64,000 nt of DNA. It comes from Escherichia phage vB_EcoM_FJ1. Positions 55,249 through 61,520 of this stretch are shown here, in pieces (the first letter of the stretch is position 1; each line of letters begins with the position of its first letter). The stretch lies in sequence record MZ170040.1. The stretch is one strand, 5' to 3'. The notes beneath the pieces are model-generated. The model ran no database searches. It saw nothing but the letters and a program-made list of their open reading frames with translations, and was not told where the DNA came from. The position numbers were made by a program, and so were the translations under genes.

Positions 55249-57513
55249 TCATAATTTACAGGATGAACAATCTTCAGCTTTTGGAGTTTCTATTTCATAA
55301 TCATCAGTACCAGAACCATCGCGGGTATTATGATAATAGAAGTTTTTAATGCCATAATACCATCCGTATAGCATGTCATCAATCATTATTGACATTGGAA
55401 CCTTTCCTTTTGGAAAAATCTGCGGGTCATAATATGTATTCGCCGAAGCTGATTGACATACCCATTTCAGCATAATAGCTACCTGCGTAAGATAAGGTTT
55501 ATTACCTTTCTTAGCTAATTTCCATGTATAGTCGTAAAGGTCTATGTTATGCTCAATATTGGGCACGACTTGATTAAAGGAGCCCTCTTTTGATTCTTTA
55601 ACAGAGACTGGTCCACGTGGAGGCTCGATACCGTTTGTACTGTTAGAAACTTGGGAAGATGACTCACATGGCATAAGTGCTGATAATGTGCTATTACGGA
55701 TGCCAAAGAGCTTAAGGTCTTCCCGCAGCGCCGACCAGTCACAAACGTATTTTGGAGCTGCGATTTGGTCAATCTTTTTATTGTACCAGTCGATAGGTAA
55801 TTCGCCTCGAGACCAACGAGTGTCTGAATAATATTCGCAAGGTCCTTTTTCTTTGGCGAGCTTAATGGATGCTTTAATGAGTCCATACTGTAATCTCTCA
55901 AATAGTTCATGTGTTAAATCGTTAGCATCTTCATAAGAAGCAAAGTTACTTGCCAGCCAAGCTGCATAGTTAGTAACACCTACACCAAGGTTACGACGCT
56001 TTTTAGCTTTTTCTGCTTCAGGAACTGGATATCCTTGGTAATCCAACAGATTATCAAGAGCGCGAACTTGAACTTCTGCTAATTCATTAATTTTATCTTG
56101 GTCTTGCCAATCGAAGTTATCCAGCACAAATGCAGATAACGTGCACAATCCAATTTCAGCATCAGGGCTATTCACATCATTTGTTGGAATAGCAATTTCA
56201 CAGCACAAGTTACTCTGACGAATAGGTGCCTTTTCACGAATAAACGGAGTATAGTTATTCGTATTATCAATGAACTGCACATAAATCCTTGCTGTTCCTG
56301 AACGTTCAGTCATGAGCAATTCAAATAGTTCACGGGCTTTAATACGCTTTTTACGAATATTAGGGTCTTTTTCTGCTGCTTCGTATAATTCACGGAAACG
56401 GTCTTGATCTTTAAAATAAGAATAATAAAGCTCGCCACCCATTTCATGTGGACTGAACAAAGTAATGTAATCGTTCTTTCCGAATCGTTCCATCATTAGA
56501 TCATTCAGCTGAACACCATAATCCATGTGACGAATGCGGTTTTCTTCTACGCCTTTGTTATTTTTCAAAACGAGAAGATTTTCAACTTCCAAATGCCAAA
56601 TAGGATAATAAGCAGTAGCAGCGCCGCCACGAATTCCACCCTGTGAGCATGATTTAACAGCAGTCTGAAAATGTTTCCAAAAAGGAATAACACCAGTATG
56701 GCGTACTTCACCCATGCCAATCTTAGAACCTTCAGCACGAATCATACCAACGTTAATACCAATTCCAGCGCGTTTAGAGATATATTCAACAATTGAAGCG
56801 GAAGCCTTATTGATAGACTTTAATGAATCACCTGCCTCAATAACAACACATGAACTGAACTGTCGAGTCGGAGTACGACAACCAGCCATAATAGGAGTTG
56901 GCAATGAAATCTGTCGGGTTGATACTGCTTCATAAAAACGGATAACATGTTTTAATCTATCAACAGGTTCATCTTGATGCAATGCCATTCCAATAGCCAT
57001 AAATGCAAACTGTGGAGTTTCATAAATTTGACCAGTGGTTTTATCTTTAACTAGATATTTTTCTTTTAATTGCATCGCCCCGGAATAAGTAAATTCCATA
57101 TCCCGTTCGTGCTTAATTTTTGATTCTAAAAATGTAATTTCTTCTGCTGAATATTTTGACAATAATTCAGGGTCATATTTACCTTCATTTACACAATAAG
57201 AAATATGGTCAATAAATGAACGTGGTTCATACTGCCCATAAACATGCTTACGAAGAGCAAACATTAAACAGCGTGCAGCTACATATTGATAATCAGGTTC
57301 TTCAACCGAAATAGAATTCGCAGCGGCCTTAATGACAATAGTCTGAATATCATCAGTTGTCATTCCATCACGGAGATAAGATTTAATATTTTCATATAAT
57401 TCATAAGGATCTACTGATGTTCCTTCAGCTGCCCAAGATAAAACTTTAATAATTTTTTGCGGGTCAAAGCTCTGAGAAACACCACTACTTTTGATAACAT
57501 TAATTAATTGCAT
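55249..57513 (-). CDS. nrdA: ribonucleotide reductase large subunit
   Basis: 754 aa; matches T4 NrdA length. Confidence 0.95.
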   Translation of the reverse strand: MQLINVIKSSGVSQSFDPQKIIKVLSWAAEGTSVDPYELYENIKSYLRDGMTTDDIQTIVIKAAANSISVEEPDYQYVAARCLMFALRKHVYGQYEPRSFIDHISYCVNEGKYDPELLSKYSAEEITFLESKIKHERDMEFTYSGAMQLKEKYLVKDKTTGQIYETPQFAFMAIGMALHQDEPVDRLKHVIRFYEAVSTRQISLPTPIMAGCRTPTRQFSSCVVIEAGDSLKSINKASASIVEYISKRAGIGINVGMIRAEGSKIGMGEVRHTGVIPFWKHFQTAVKSCSQGGIRGGAATAYYPIWHLEVENLLVLKNNKGVEENRIRHMDYGVQLNDLMMERFGKNDYITLFSPHEMGGELYYSYFKDQDRFRELYEAAEKDPNIRKKRIKARELFELLMTERSGTARIYVQFIDNTNNYTPFIREKAPIRQSNLCCEIAIPTNDVNSPDAEIGLCTLSAFVLDNFDWQDQDKINELAEVQVRALDNLLDYQGYPVPEAEKAKKRRNLGVGVTNYAAWLASNFASYEDANDLTHELFERLQYGLIKASIKLAKEKGPCEYYSDTRWSRGELPIDWYNKKIDQIAAPKYVCDWSALREDLKLFGIRNSTLSALMPCESSSQVSNSTNGIEPPRGPVSVKESKEGSFNQVVPNIEHNIDLYDYTWKLAKKGNKPYLTQVAIMLKWVCQSASANTYYDPQIFPKGKVPMSIMIDDMLYGWYYGIKNFYYHNTRDGSGTDDYEIETPKAEDCSSCKL

Positions 57514-57830
57514 AAGTCCTCAACTTGAAAATCGTCTTTAAACAATCGGTTAACTATATGAGCTATTATATCACCATGACACGGCTTTGGTTTACATGTG
57601 CATCCTAGCCTCATTCCACGTAAAGGCTCTAAATGTGCTTTAGTTATTTCTCCGGATTTAATTCGACGTATAAAATCTTTTTTGAATAATTCAATGGCAG
57701 CCTCCCGGCTGCCAGCATCTTTACCGACGTAATTTCCCCAAAATGTACCGCGGTGAATATTAACATCAAAGTCGGATTTGTATTTATTCACTACCCGGCA
57801 TAGACGGCCCACGCTGGAATAATTCGTCAT
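57504..57830 (-). CDS. hypothetical protein with C-x-C...C-H cluster (nrdA.1 position)
   Basis: 108 aa ATG ORF. Confidence 0.55.
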
Positions 57831-58047
57831 ATTGTTTTTCCGTTAATACAGTAATATCATAGTAACAATCGGAAGAAGTTTTAACTGTGGAAATTTTATT
57901 ATCAAAATACTCACGAGTCATTTTATGAGTATAGTATTTTTTACCATAAATGGTAATAGGCTGTTCTGGTCCTGGAACTTCTAACTCGCTTGGGTTAGGA
58001 AGTGTAAAAAGAACAACGCCAGAAGTATCTTTAAATCGTAAAATCAT
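57784..58047 (-). CDS. hypothetical protein (nrdA.2 position)
   Basis: 87 aa ATG ORF. Confidence 0.5.
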
Positions 58048-58904
58048 ATTGCCATTTTCCCTTTAATTGCTGGATGCGATTCATAATTTTCAAGGATAAA
58101 ATCTTTCGGTTTCATGTATTCAGTTAACCAGTAAAGCTGTGTTTCGGTGTCACAATTTCCAAACTCTATAGGCCAATCAATTTTAAGTTCACACAGTTCT
58201 TTAGGCTCACGACGTAAAATTTCTTTACATTGCTCAGTATGATTCATATAGATGTGAGTATTACCACCAGAAAATATCAAATCTCCTGGGATAAGATTAC
58301 ACATCTTAGCCACAATATGCGTCAAGGCAGCGTACGAGGCAATGTTGAATGGCAAGCCCAAGAAAACATCTACACTTCTTTGGTACCATTGTAAATCAAG
58401 ATAACCATTACGCACATTAAACTGATAGAACATATGACAGGGCGGTAATGCCATTTGATTGATTTCAGCTGGATTCCATGCTGAAACGATTTGACGTCGA
58501 TCAGTTGGTAATTTTTTAATACGATCAATAGTTTCAACTAATTGATCCACACCACCGAAATCACGCCATTGTTTACCGTATATAGGACCAAGTTCACCAC
58601 TATGATATCCTAGGTCTTTAGCCTGGTTTTCATAGTTATCGTCCCAAATAGTTTTACCTTGAATAAGACTGCCATGAGTGCGAAGACGTAAATCATTAAC
58701 ATTGGTAGAACCGGAAATAAACCATAGAAGCTCAGCAATGCATGCATTCCAGGCGAGCTTCTTAGTTGTTACTGCAGGAAAACCTTTGGTTAAATCCCAA
58801 CGCAATTTAGTACCGAACAAAGCAATTGTTCCTGTGCCCGTTCGGTCATCGGTTTCATAGCCATTTTCAAAAATGTCTTTAATTAAATCTTGGTATTGTT
58901 TCAT
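58044..58904 (-). CDS. td: thymidylate synthase, uninterrupted (no intron)
   Basis: 286 aa continuous ORF; sequence recognised as T4 TS. Confidence 0.95.
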
Positions 58905-58949
58905 TTAGTACCTTATATAAATTATAATACATTTTATGAAGCTGAATAA

Positions 58950-59309
58950 TCAATACGGTTTAGCATCAAATTTTCTTTCAATTTCAGGCGTGAAATATAA
59001 TTCTTTACCACGTTTGGAAAAGCGACCAATAATATGATAATTATTCTTATCAAACGTAATATTACCAATATCCATAGCTTTCAACCAAATATCGATATTT
59101 CTATCCAGCTTTATGTCAAAATTCCAATACGGAGAACTATTACCGAAAATACTGCAAGCGGATTCAGTGAAACAGCTACTATAAATCTTGTCTTTAGGAA
59201 CTACTAATTGATAGACACCTTTAATAAACTGAGGACCTTGCCATTTTGGCTGTTTCGCGTCTTTTTCTAATAGAATAGGGTAATAATTAAAATTCATATT
59301 TTCCGCCAT
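58950..59309 (-). CDS. hypothetical 119-aa protein inserted between frd and td
   Basis: ATG ORF, 8 nt after frd stop and 45 nt before td start; no recognisable motif. Confidence 0.55.
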   Translation of the reverse strand: MAENMNFNYYPILLEKDAKQPKWQGPQFIKGVYQLVVPKDKIYSSCFTESACSIFGNSSPYWNFDIKLDRNIDIWLKAMDIGNITFDKNNYHIIGRFSKRGKELYFTPEIERKFDAKPY

Positions 59310-59317
59310 GCGTTATT

Positions 59318-60144
<827 letters not shown>

Positions 60145-60155
60145 ATTATCTCCTA

Positions 60156-60488
60156 TTAAAAAGGATCAGGAACATATCCGCTAGCTTTAATCATTTTAAT
60201 TAACGTTAACATTCCTTTGTTAACTGCTCGTGAGATTTCATCAAAAACTTCATCACTAAAAAGTTCTAACACGCCCTTCTGAACTTTTAATTTACAGCCA
60301 ACAATTTCGTCATCGCCTATAGTAAATTCGTTTCCGCCAATTCCACCGAAAAACTTAATTACACCAGTTAACTGTCTTCCACGAGAATATGGGTCGTGTG
60401 ATAAAGTAATATGAGTCACCCCGGGTACAGTTTTAAATTGGCAGCGAATATTTACTTGTGAAATTCCAGTTACATGAATGTCAGACAT
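60156..60488 (-). CDS. hypothetical protein (frd.2 position)
   Basis: 110 aa ATG ORF. Confidence 0.55.
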   Translation of the reverse strand: MSDIHVTGISQVNIRCQFKTVPGVTHITLSHDPYSRGRQLTGVIKFFGGIGGNEFTIGDDEIVGCKLKVQKGVLELFSDEVFDEISRAVNKGMLTLIKMIKASGYVPDPF

Positions 60489-60498
60489 AATATTTTCC

Positions 60499-60741
60499 TC
60501 AAATAGACTTTTTCACAATTTTCCAATCAGCTTTAAACTGATCGACGTCAGAGTGATAAATCCAAAATCCTGCGCTTTCACCGTCTTCATAAAGCGGACA
60601 CCCATCACATTCATCTTCCCATCCCATGCCACGTAAAAGGTGTTCAGCTTTTTCAACAAGTTCAGAATCTTTACCGATGATATTAAAATACCATTTACCT
60701 CTAACTTCTGAATCTTTGATGCTCTGGCGTTGTAATCTCAT
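60499..60741 (-). CDS. hypothetical protein (frd.3 position)
   Basis: 80 aa ATG ORF. Confidence 0.55.
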   Translation of the reverse strand: MRLQRQSIKDSEVRGKWYFNIIGKDSELVEKAEHLLRGMGWEDECDGCPLYEDGESAGFWIYHSDVDQFKADWKIVKKSI

Positions 60742-60751
60742 TTTATTCTCC

Positions 60752-60820
60752 TTAGCAAGCTTTAATCAAAAGATATAAACAGACCAACATAACTGCTGCC
60801 ATAATATAAGGTGCGAACAT
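60752..60820 (-). CDS. putative 22-aa hydrophobic micro-protein (MFAPYIMAAVMLVCLYLLIKAC)
   Basis: ATG with GGAG 8 nt upstream; GTTTAC-N18-TACTAT promoter-like sequence at 60851-60880. Confidence 0.35.
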   Translation of the reverse strand: MFAPYIMAAVMLVCLYLLIKAC

Positions 60821-60879
60821 TTTCTTTTCTCCATTAGTTTTGATAGGGTAATAGTATCACACTACTACTCTTCTGTAAA

Positions 60880-61245
60880 CTACTTTTTGAAAGTTTTTCG
60901 CAAAAGTTCAATGATTTCATCTACATTGTTTTCGTCAACAATGCAGTGAATTTTTGTTACGCCAGAAACCTTGTCTTTGACTTCATCTTCTTCAGAAGTC
61001 GGTTCTTTATACTCACGAAAACAATGAAATTCATCTTCGCAGACGTTGAAGTAAAAATGCTTTCCATTGGCGCATTCTACGTGTTTTACTACTTTAAATC
61101 CATCAGCAAAGAAAACTTCTTTAACTTCAAACCATCCGCCATTTTCTTGAATAGCTTTAACTATTAATGAATTAGAACGCGGGCGATAATTAATAAATGT
61201 ATCAATAAGTCTTGGAACAAGTTCGTACTTTTTATCAATATACAT
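60880..61245 (-). CDS. hypothetical protein with Cys/His cluster
   Basis: 121 aa ATG ORF; HVECANGKHFYFNVCEDEFHCF segment. Confidence 0.55.
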   Translation of the reverse strand: MYIDKKYELVPRLIDTFINYRPRSNSLIVKAIQENGGWFEVKEVFFADGFKVVKHVECANGKHFYFNVCEDEFHCFREYKEPTSEEDEVKDKVSGVTKIHCIVDENNVDEIIELLRKTFKK

Positions 61246-61289
61246 TATGTTTTCCTCATTTTAATAGGGGCTTGATAGCCCCTCGATAA

Positions 61290-61520
61290 TTACTGTTCAA
61301 TCAATCCCATGTAAAATTCTGCATCTTCAGCATCCATACCATCACAGTATTCATTAGCCATAAATCGTTCAAGAACTTCTAAAGGACCTTCAATAACAAT
61401 AGAAAAATTGCAATAATTGGGATCATCATGAATACTTGTGATACTAAGTTCAGGATAACGATTACGAATAATTTCTTCAATATATTCAAAATCAACGATG
61501 TCAATATCAACTTTAGCCAT
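61290..61520 (-). CDS. hypothetical acidic protein
   Basis: Second ATG at 61520 has AGAGGA SD (76 aa); track gives 83 aa from ATG at 61541. Confidence 0.5.

What the first reader, a model, noticed from the sequence alone, without database searches (positions are those of the whole stretch)
58950..59309. A 119-codon ORF sits between frd and td, which overlap directly in T4
From established T4 literature, frd and td overlap by ATGA. Here a 119-aa ATG ORF (MAENMNFNYYPILLEKDAKQ...) plus short spacers, about 410 bp in all, lies between them, packed tightly (8 nt after the frd stop, 45 nt before the td ATG). It has no motif I recognise. Together with td being intron-less, this locus looks like a site of cargo exchange, and the ORF is a candidate accessory gene of unknown function.
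Basis: partly seen in the sequence, partly recalled or inferred. Interest (0 to 1): 0.5.

Follow-up and report, generated by a model that had tools for sequence, protein, structure and literature searches.

The report
Conserved small gene td.1; T4 lost it
The ORF between the dihydrofolate reductase and thymidylate synthase genes is a real, already annotated small gene of unknown function (td.1) that most T4-like phages carry at this spot, so phage T4 is the exception because it deleted the gene.

Summary
It is a genuine gene, with dN/dS of 0.02-0.07 between alleles. The conserved start is probably the second ATG (59297), giving 115 aa.

It is not new. GenBank records for T6 and T2H already name it td.1, and it belongs to PHROG 1928 (unknown function). 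About 362 phage records carry it at >=90% aa identity. Diverged homologues (about 30% identity), sometimes as tandem paralogues, sit between DHFR and thymidylate synthase in at least six other T4-like lineages and seven metagenomic contigs.

The direct frd/td overlap seen in T4 is the minority state: about 41 Tequatrovirus records, many of them T4 itself. It equals a precise 417-bp deletion between two copies of TAAATGAAA. A third allele, an unrelated 68-aa ORF, occupies the junction in about 135 records. The junction is therefore polymorphic, but td.1 is the ancestral occupant and not imported cargo. Its presence is unrelated to the td intron.

The parts
58950..59297 (-). td.1 coding sequence: 115 aa from the conserved ATG at 59297. 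The maximal ORF extends to the ATG at 59309, giving 119 aa.
   Evidence: ORF list. PHROG 1928 match, E=3e-35. Annotated td.1 in T6. Start-codon comparison across alleles. dN/dS 0.02-0.07.
59298..59317 (-). 20-nt frd-td.1 spacer with a weak Shine-Dalgarno-like GGCGGA at 59307..59302. The GGA lies 4 nt before the ATG at 59297.
   Evidence: Sequence reading. The 'ggcggaaaat' stretch is conserved in ZJUN4 and Shf125875. In Mosigvirus SF the spacer is absent and td.1's ATG overlaps the frd stop (ATGA).
59316..59324 (-). Left copy of the 9-bp direct repeat TAAATGAAA. It spans the frd stop codon.
   Evidence: repeat D3, 11/12 identical over 12 nt, spacing 417. T4 has exactly one copy at its frd/td overlap.
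58899..58907 (-). Right copy of the 9-bp direct repeat TAAATGAAA. It spans the td start codon.
58905..58949 (-). 45-nt td.1-td spacer. It holds a sigma-70-like hexamer pair (TTGATT-18-TATTAT), a TATAAT, and the td ribosome-binding AAGG at 58914..58911.
   Evidence: Consensus scan and sequence reading. Promoter function is not shown. The spacer is conserved in T6 and ZJUN4 but is only 13-15 nt in Mosigvirus alleles.
59318..59899 (-). frd (dihydrofolate reductase, 193 aa from MIKLVF). Its last 540 nt are 95-100% identical to T4 frd in every 60-nt window.
58044..58904 (-). td (thymidylate synthase, 286 aa, no intron).
   Evidence: Comparison with T4 and T6 td, which is annotated as joined from two pieces.

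Best explanation
This is td.1, a small gene that is an old, vertically inherited resident of the frd -> td -> nrdA nucleotide-metabolism gene block of T4-like phages (Straboviridae). It is read in the same direction as its neighbours and packed tightly against them. By inference it is co-transcribed with them and translated from the conserved ATG at 59297 as a 115-aa, mildly basic protein. The protein is predicted to fold into a compact beta-barrel with one helix.

T4's well-known ATGA overlap of frd and td is the derived state. It equals removal of exactly 417 bp between two copies of TAAATGAAA, one at the frd stop and one at the td start. That deletion re-creates an intact stop/start overlap.

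The gene is dispensable, since T4 and some Mosigvirus phages do without it, but where present it is under strong purifying selection.

Mechanism (inferred, not shown): the protein has no catalytic signature and looks like a binding module. The conserved Trp22, Tyr32, Phe96, Arg95 and Lys98 form a surface of the kind OB-like barrels use to hold single-stranded nucleic acid or a partner protein. It most likely acts as an accessory binder in the phage's dNTP-synthesis and replication machinery.

Sub-confidences: identity and evolutionary history about 0.85; 'non-enzymatic binding module' about 0.5; 'nucleic-acid binding' about 0.25.
For: - **Real gene:** dN/dS is 0.02-0.07, and the family is conserved down to about 30% identity at constant length.
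- **Already named:** it is annotated td.1 in T6 AY262134 and T2H AY262132 and matches PHROG 1928 at E=3e-35.
- **Frequency:** tblastn finds 589 phage records, 362 of them at >=90% identity. The contiguous T4-type junction occurs in 57 records, 41 at >=90% identity, many of which are T4 itself.
- **Synteny (DHFR - family member(s) - thymidylate synthase):**
  - Kanagawavirus, a Klebsiella T4-like phage, Roskildevirus, Marfavirus and Gelderlandvirus.
  - Mosigvirus SF and Shf125875.
  - Metagenomic contigs L011, L013, L018, L020 and L021; L014 and L019 show DHFR upstream, with the downstream gene absent or unassigned.
- **Paralogues:** second tandem ORFs in several genera are also PHROG 1928 members.
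- **Deletion:** the repeats lie at 59324..59316 and 58907..58899, 417 bp apart. The T4 sequence GTATATAAATGAAACAATACC contains one copy. The flanks are 92-100% identical to T4.
- **No sign of foreign origin:** GC3 is 26.7%, against 24-33% in neighbouring genes.
- **Charge:** the family's median pI is 8.8.
- **Narrow distribution:** only 41 cluster representatives were found among 1.84 billion proteins. All but one 899-aa repeat protein and two short fragments are 95-139 aa.
Against:
- **No functional data:** no experiment, expression data or paper on td.1 was found.
- **Synteny is weak evidence of function:** T4-like genomes are broadly collinear, so constant neighbours alone do not prove a functional link to thymidylate synthesis.
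- **Direction of the indel:** a 9-bp repeat at the boundaries fits an insertion with target duplication as well as a deletion. The direction rests on parsimony across genera. Short repeats are also common in this AT-rich DNA; there are 6 families in 801 nt.
- **Not required:** its absence from T4 shows it is not needed for a working dNTP-synthesis complex.
Confidence: 0.7

Rival explanations
1. td.1 is an anti-defence or host-takeover accessory gene. In this view it is a small dispensable protein that neutralises a host immunity or host factor met by some phages but not others, and it is gained and lost accordingly.
For: - It is dispensable: absent from T4 and from Mosigvirus ATK47.
- Presence/absence polymorphism occurs within two genera.
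- An unrelated 68-aa ORF can occupy the same junction.
- In Mosigvirus SF, td.1 is 89.9% identical in DNA to the window while the adjacent frd is only 63%, which suggests lateral exchange.
- It has no recognisable domain.
Against: - It holds a fixed position between DHFR and thymidylate synthase down to about 30% identity in many lineages.
- It is 97-99% identical across hundreds of Tequatrovirus genomes with dN/dS 0.02-0.07. That is not the diversifying or patchy pattern usual for counter-defence genes.
- No homologue was found outside T4-like phages.
- There is no PADLOC relation, though PADLOC holds defence proteins and not anti-defence proteins, so this says little.
Confidence: 0.2
2. td.1 is a dedicated adaptor of the thymidylate cycle. 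It binds Frd and/or Td and holds them together. This would be functionally analogous to the junction of bifunctional DHFR-TS enzymes, which have the same gene order, and would aid dihydrofolate hand-over or assembly into the dNTP-synthetase complex.
For: - Every family member examined sits directly after DHFR, and wherever the downstream flank was readable, before thymidylate synthase. This holds even for the most diverged members, with profile E-values of about 1e-4 to 1e-6.
- Start and stop codons are often coupled to the neighbours: the ATGA overlap with frd in SF, and overlaps in Klebsiella, Erwinia and Salmonella phages.
- Strong purifying selection.
- A non-enzymatic small barrel fold.
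Against: - T4's Frd and Td work without it.
- Collinearity of T4-like genomes could explain the synteny by itself.
- No interaction was tested. The structure tool returns no inter-chain or PAE information, so a co-folding test could not be read.
Confidence: 0.12
3. td.1 is recently imported cargo (a moron) dropped into a recombination hot spot between frd and td, and T4 shows the original state.
For: - Nine-bp direct repeats flank the 417-bp segment, as a target-site duplication would.
- GC content is slightly low, 31.6% against 36% for the window.
- Several alleles exist at the junction.
Against: - Diverged orthologues and paralogues sit at the same position in at least seven lineages and in seven metagenomic contigs.
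- GC3 is indistinguishable from that of the neighbours.
- There is no associated nuclease, integrase or other mobility gene, and no nuclease motif in the protein.
Confidence: 0.04
4. The ORF is not translated and the open frame is incidental. The DNA would serve only as a spacer or promoter region for td.
For: The Shine-Dalgarno-like sequence is weak. A promoter-like motif lies just downstream of the ORF. No expression data were found.
Against: dN/dS is 0.02-0.07 with dS up to 0.66. The protein-level family is conserved at 30% identity. AlphaFold gives a confident fold, pLDDT 91. No Rfam match reaches significance.
Confidence: 0.01

Closest known systems
td.1 of phages T6 and T2H (GenBank AY262134, AY262132), also listed as RB32ORF229c and as the Shfl2 hypothetical protein; PHROG 1928 (unknown function)
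   Same: It is the same gene. The product is 98.3% identical to the T2, T2H and T6 products, sits in the same position between frd and td, and matches the PHROG 1928 profile over its full length at E=3e-35.
   Different: Nothing of substance differs. The window's allele has one or two amino-acid differences. The records disagree on the start codon (119 vs 115/116 aa).
Long-form PHROG 1928 paralogues, e.g. the second ORF between frd and td in Marfavirus VAC36, Kanagawavirus IME523 and Gelderlandvirus NP4
   Same: They share the conserved motifs: LLxxDxxQKKW near the N-terminus, HGxY, and GRFxKxGxxxxFxP at the C-terminus. They occupy the same interval and have similar size.
   Different: They carry an insertion of 15-30 residues after the conserved Trp (PTIxxYxxNPxxY). 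They occur in tandem with a short-form copy. Tequatrovirus has only the short form.
OB-fold nucleic-acid or protein-binding domains (RPA14/32, Stn1/Ten1, Teb1, HIN, S1, RecO)
   Same: td.1 is also a small beta-barrel with a single helix inserted before the last strands. OB folds dominate both PDB hit lists. The protein is mildly basic, with conserved aromatic and basic residues on strands and loops.
The 68-aa ORF (PHROG 9550) that occupies the frd-td junction in other Tequatrovirus phages, e.g. Yersinia phage fPS-65
   Same: It has the same location and is also of unknown function. It is likewise joined to frd and td by ATGA/TAATGA overlaps.
   Different: It is unrelated in sequence. It has homologues at 43% identity outside the T4-like phages, in Phapecoctavirus. 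It co-occurs with td.1 in Marfavirus.

Membership tests
td.1 / PHROG 1928 | Significant full-length match to the family profile | tested here: met
   phrog_1928: E=3.1e-35, residues 8-115 of the protein against profile positions 2-125 of 126. Own family HMM: E=5.9e-33.
td.1 / PHROG 1928 | Located between the dihydrofolate reductase and thymidylate synthase genes, on the same strand | tested here: met
   Window. The same arrangement is seen in T6, five further GenBank lineages, two Mosigvirus phages and metagenomic contigs.
td.1 / PHROG 1928 | Conserved residues Trp22, Gly94, Lys98, Gly100 (invariant) and Gln19, Gly30, Tyr32, Phe96, Phe105 (>=90%) | tested here: met
   All are present in the window protein in the 47-sequence alignment.
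OB-fold domains | Five-stranded closed beta-barrel with a helix between strands 3 and 4, detectable as significant structural similarity | tested here: inconclusive
OB-fold domains | Binding of single-stranded nucleic acid, oligosaccharide or a partner protein on the barrel face | not testable with these tools
   Only indirect evidence: median pI 8.8 and conserved aromatic and basic residues.
Homing endonucleases (some GenBank records label this ORF 'putative homing endonuclease') | GIY-YIG, HNH, LAGLIDADG or other nuclease domain | tested here: not met
   The window protein has no Pfam hit at E<=1. None of 47 family members shares any Pfam family at E<=10.
Dihydrofolate reductase (some records label it 'reductase' or 'dihydrofolate reductase') | DHFR_1 domain | tested here: not met
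   No Pfam or NCBIfam hit. The labels come from overlapping or neighbouring annotation.
Known anti-phage defence proteins (PADLOC) | Match to a defence-system protein model | tested here: not met
   No PADLOC hit at E<=1. No library of anti-defence proteins was available, so membership of that class is untested.

The most novel reading that the evidence does not exclude
The td.1 family (PHROG 1928) is a dedicated partner of the phage thymidylate cycle. In this reading it is a small barrel protein that bridges Frd and Td, or tethers them to nucleic acid or to the dNTP-synthetase complex. That would make the frd-td.1-td block a non-covalent counterpart of bifunctional DHFR-TS. T4 would have replaced this coupling with translational coupling after deleting the gene.
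Probability: 0.12. Interest if true: 0.55.

Novelty: already known. Interest (0 to 1): 0.2.

Why it matters
The practical value is mostly corrective. T4 is the reference for this phage group, so genes T4 has lost look like insertions when other genomes are read against it. Here the reference is the odd one out.

The result adds three things: a clean example of a precise microhomology-bounded deletion that regenerates a stop/start overlap; a three-allele junction inside a core metabolic gene block; and a narrowly distributed, strongly constrained protein family of unknown function that always sits between DHFR and thymidylate synthase. That last point gives a small, testable lead on whether T4-like phages have an extra component in thymidylate synthesis. 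The gene itself is not a new discovery.

Tried and rejected
- **Domain and family searches:** Pfam on the protein and on all 47 family members at E<=10 gave no consistent family. NCBIfam and PADLOC gave nothing.
- **Solved structures:** the PDB sequence-profile search gave only noise, E >= 0.23.
- **RNA families:** Rfam over 57000-61500 on both strands found nothing near a gathering score.
- **Viral structure library:** BFVD returned only uncharacterised proteins of other T4-like phages.
- **Literature:** searches for td.1, phrog_1928 and T2/T6-specific accessory genes found no paper that discusses the gene. Wilson & Edgell 2009 (PMC2790892) cites the T6/T2H accessions only for nrdB/mobE.
- **Paralogues elsewhere:** none was found in the 64-kb window, in the T4 locus, or among the ORFs upstream of frd in JS98.
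- **Spurious hit:** an 899-aa hit in the representative search (P0033) is a tandem-repeat protein that scores by summed weak repeats. I rejected it as spurious.
- **Co-folding test not run:** I considered co-folding td.1 with Frd or Td as a linked chain.
- **Opposite-strand ORFs:** the plus-strand ORFs inside the region (33 aa at 58936..59037, 57 aa at 59034..59207) were ignored. They are antisense to a gene under strong codon-level constraint.

Full report
**1. The observation**

The ORF is real and the coordinates are correct. It lies on the minus strand at 58950..59309 and has 119 codons, beginning MAENMNFNYYPILLEKDAKQ.
- Upstream is frd. Its ORF spans 59318..59926, and the T4-like start MIKLVF is at 59899.
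- Downstream is an uninterrupted 286-aa td at 58044..58904.
- The frd stop is at 59320-59318, so 8 nt precede the ORF's ATG. 45 nt (58905-58949) separate its stop from the td ATG.
- In T4 (AF158101) frd and td overlap by 4 nt, reading ...GTATATAAATGAAACAATACC.... The contrast with T4 is therefore also correct.
- The window is a Tequatrovirus about 98% identical to phages such as slur03, slur14 and vB_Eco_BGP.

**2. It is a genuine protein-coding gene**

Alleles differ mostly at synonymous sites:

| Comparison | Synonymous differences | Non-synonymous differences | dS | dN | dN/dS |
|---|---|---|---|---|---|
| Window vs T6 | 9 | 1 | 0.158 | 0.004 | 0.023 |
| Window vs Shf125875 | 28 | 10 | 0.662 | 0.036 | 0.055 |

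The protein family is conserved down to about 30% identity at nearly constant length. Trp22, Gly94, Lys98 and Gly100 are invariant. The C-terminal motif is GRFxKxGxxxxFxP.

The conserved start is the second ATG at 59297 (MNFNYY...). The first ATG is GTG in ZJUN4, CTG in Shf125875 and missing in Mosigvirus SF, where td.1's ATG overlaps the frd stop as ATGA. T6's annotation also starts at MNFNYY. The product is therefore most likely 115 aa.

A weak Shine-Dalgarno-like GGCGGA precedes that ATG. GC3 is 26.7%, which matches the neighbouring genes at 24-33%.

**3. It is already known, as a hypothetical gene**

tblastn against 50,697 phage records finds it in 589 records, 362 of them at >=90% identity. 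These include T2, T6, RB3, RB14, RB18, RB27, RB32 and RB51.
- The T6 (AY262134) and T2H (AY262132) records name it td.1.
- It belongs to PHROG 1928, annotated 'unknown function'.
- No paper in the searchable library discusses it. The paper that cites those accessions uses them for nrdB/mobE (PMC2790892).

**4. T4 is the exception**

I searched with a junction-spanning 61-nt T4 probe at an E-value cut-off that half-matches cannot pass. It finds the contiguous frd/td overlap in 57 records. Of these, 41 are at >=90% identity, a large share being T4 isolates and laboratory variants. Another 22 are at 86% identity and belong to other coliphage lineages (IME08, Bp7, QL01 and similar).

A third allele also exists. 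An unrelated 68-aa ORF (PHROG 9550) is fused to frd and td by ATGA/TAATGA overlaps in about 135 records at >=90% identity.

| Junction state | Records | Approximate share of Tequatrovirus-type records |
|---|---|---|
| td.1 | about 362 | two thirds |
| 68-aa ORF (PHROG 9550) | about 135 | one quarter |
| Bare overlap (T4-type) | about 41 | under one tenth |

**5. The gene is old at this position**

Family members sit between DHFR and thymidylate synthase in all of these:
- Kanagawavirus IME523, Klebsiella phage K65_evo5, Roskildevirus Cronus, Marfavirus VAC36 and Gelderlandvirus NP4.
- Mosigvirus SF and Shf125875.
- Metagenomic contigs carrying even the most diverged members found by a profile search of 1.84 billion proteins (L011, L013, L014, L018, L019, L020, L021).

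Only one contig (L012) differed. There the sequence ends right after the gene, so the downstream neighbour is unknown.

In several genera the interval holds two family members in tandem, a short form and a long form with an insertion after the conserved Trp. The whole family has only 41 representatives at 50% clustering. Apart from one spurious 899-aa repeat protein and two short fragments, all are 95-139 aa.

Presence across these lineages makes loss in T4 far more parsimonious than repeated gain.

**6. How T4 lost it**

In the window the 9-mer TAAATGAAA occurs at the frd stop (59324..59316) and again at the td start (58907..58899), 417 bp apart. Over 12 nt the two copies match at 11 positions.
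- T4 has exactly one copy and lacks exactly the 417 bp between them.
- The flanks are 95-100% (frd) and 87-97% (first 180 nt of td) identical to T4.
- Recombination or slippage between the two copies removes td.1 and regenerates the ATGA overlap.
- The same microhomology (TAAATGAA) flanks td.1 in Mosigvirus SF, and Mosigvirus ATK47 has the bare overlap. The same event is therefore possible in that genus and both states exist there.

One caveat applies. Short repeats are frequent in this AT-rich DNA, and a repeat alone cannot give the direction of the event. The direction comes from the synteny described in section 5.

**7. Relation to the td intron**

There is none. T6 has td.1 and an intron-containing td. 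Lutter, RB3, RB7 and Manna have td.1 together with I-TevI. T2 and this window have td.1 without the intron.

**8. What the protein is**

No sequence-based annotation was obtained. Pfam, NCBIfam, PADLOC and PDB sequence profiles were all negative.

AlphaFold2 gives a consistent fold with a 15-sequence alignment (pLDDT 80, pTM 0.75) and a 47-sequence alignment (pLDDT 91, pTM 0.84). The elements are strands at 9-15, 30-37, 51-53 and 65-67, a helix at 71-79, and strands at 83-85, 89-99 and 102-107.
- Both lists nevertheless consist almost entirely of OB-fold domains: HIN, Teb1, RPA14/32/70, Stn1/Ten1, S1, RecO, the ExoVII large subunit and MCM N-terminal domains.
- In BFVD the significant hits are uncharacterised proteins of other T4-like phages, including Pectobacterium PM2, Serratia Muldoon, Erwinia Cronus and Aeromonas phiAS5/Ah1.
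- The family is mildly basic, with a median pI of 8.8.

**9. Most likely mechanism (inference)**

td.1 is a non-enzymatic binding module made alongside Frd, Td and ribonucleotide reductase. It is dispensable but selectively maintained.

The conserved aromatic and basic residues (Trp22, Tyr32, Arg95, Phe96, Lys98) on a small barrel fit a surface that binds nucleic acid or a partner protein. My probabilities are:
- About 0.5 that it is a binding module of this kind.
- About 0.25 that the ligand is nucleic acid.
- About 0.12 that it specifically bridges Frd and Td.
- About 0.2 that it is instead a counter-defence or host-takeover factor.

The strong sequence constancy and the fixed position argue against the counter-defence option. 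Its dispensability and presence/absence polymorphism argue for it.

**10. Verdict**

As a finding it is ordinary.

The remaining interest is modest. It lies in an uncharacterised, strongly constrained family that is always found between DHFR and thymidylate synthase.

Noticed in passing
L008 751-957 (Yersinia phage fPS-65); L006 3148-3354 (Klebsiella phage VAC36): An unrelated 68-aa ORF (PHROG 9550, MSNKLKVKDVP...) occupies the frd-td junction in about 135 Tequatrovirus/Dhakavirus-type records in place of td.1. It co-occurs with td.1 and a td.1 paralogue in Marfavirus. It has 43%-identical homologues in Phapecoctavirus, which is not T4-like. Some records label it 'flagellar biosynthesis protein'.
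   Followed up: partly
L003 2817-3176, L006 2790-3143, L007 2809-3159, L005 2059-2493: Tandem paralogues of td.1 lie between frd and td in Kanagawavirus, Marfavirus, Gelderlandvirus and Roskildevirus. They are also PHROG 1928 members, in a long form with a PTIxxYxxNPxxY insertion after the conserved Trp. Tequatrovirus keeps only the short form.
   Followed up: partly
window 58365-58904 (td, first 540 nt), breakpoint near 58724: The window's td is a mosaic. Its first 180 nt are 87-98% identical to T4, T6 and ZJUN4. The next 60 nt drop to 57%, and the rest is 75-88%. T4, T6, ZJUN4 and fPS-65 are 94-97% identical to each other throughout. A recombination breakpoint therefore lies inside td exon 1 in this phage's lineage.
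   Followed up: partly
L016 (Mosigvirus SF), L015 (Shf125875), L009 (ATK47): Mosigvirus is polymorphic for td.1. SF and Shf125875 carry it at 89-90% nucleotide identity to the window, although SF's adjacent frd is only 63% identical. ATK47 has the bare frd/td overlap. This suggests exchange of the td.1-td side between genera.
   Followed up: partly
window 59297-59321: Relative to Mosigvirus SF (gtatataaATGAATTTT), the window has an extra 24 nt (ATGAAataacgcatggcggaaaat) bounded by the 5-nt repeat ATGAA. A second microhomology-bounded indel therefore sits at the frd/td.1 boundary. It creates the extra upstream ATG that gives the 119-codon reading.
   Followed up: no
window 58905-58953: The td.1-td spacer contains TTGATT-18-TATTAT, an overlapping TATAAT, and a GCTTCA about 10 nt upstream that loosely resembles a MotA box. 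It might be a td-proximal promoter that T4 cannot have. This rests on a consensus match only.
   Followed up: no
window 59899-59926: The frd ORF extends 9 codons upstream (MVYRKRICV) of the T4-type start MIKLVF at 59899. The extension overlaps the end of frd.1 and is probably not translated.
   Followed up: no
GenBank records listed: td.1 carries misleading product names in several records: 'putative homing endonuclease' (FelixPlatter, KarlGJung and others), 'putative glucose-1-phosphate adenylyltransferase' (pSe_SNUABM_01), 'reductase' and 'dihydrofolate reductase'. A record named Pseudomonas phage vB_PSGBLB0006 carries a 98%-identical copy, so it looks like a Tequatrovirus.
   Followed up: no
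P0033: An 899-aa protein made of eight near-identical repeats of about 110 aa scored E=4e-12 against the td.1 profile through summed weak matches to profile positions 19-51. I judged it spurious.
   Followed up: partly
L012 (metagenomic contig): One long-form family member (P0035) lies downstream of NadR-like, NMN-transporter and DksA/TraR-type zinc-finger genes and not downstream of DHFR. The contig ends right after it, so the downstream neighbour is unknown.
   Followed up: no
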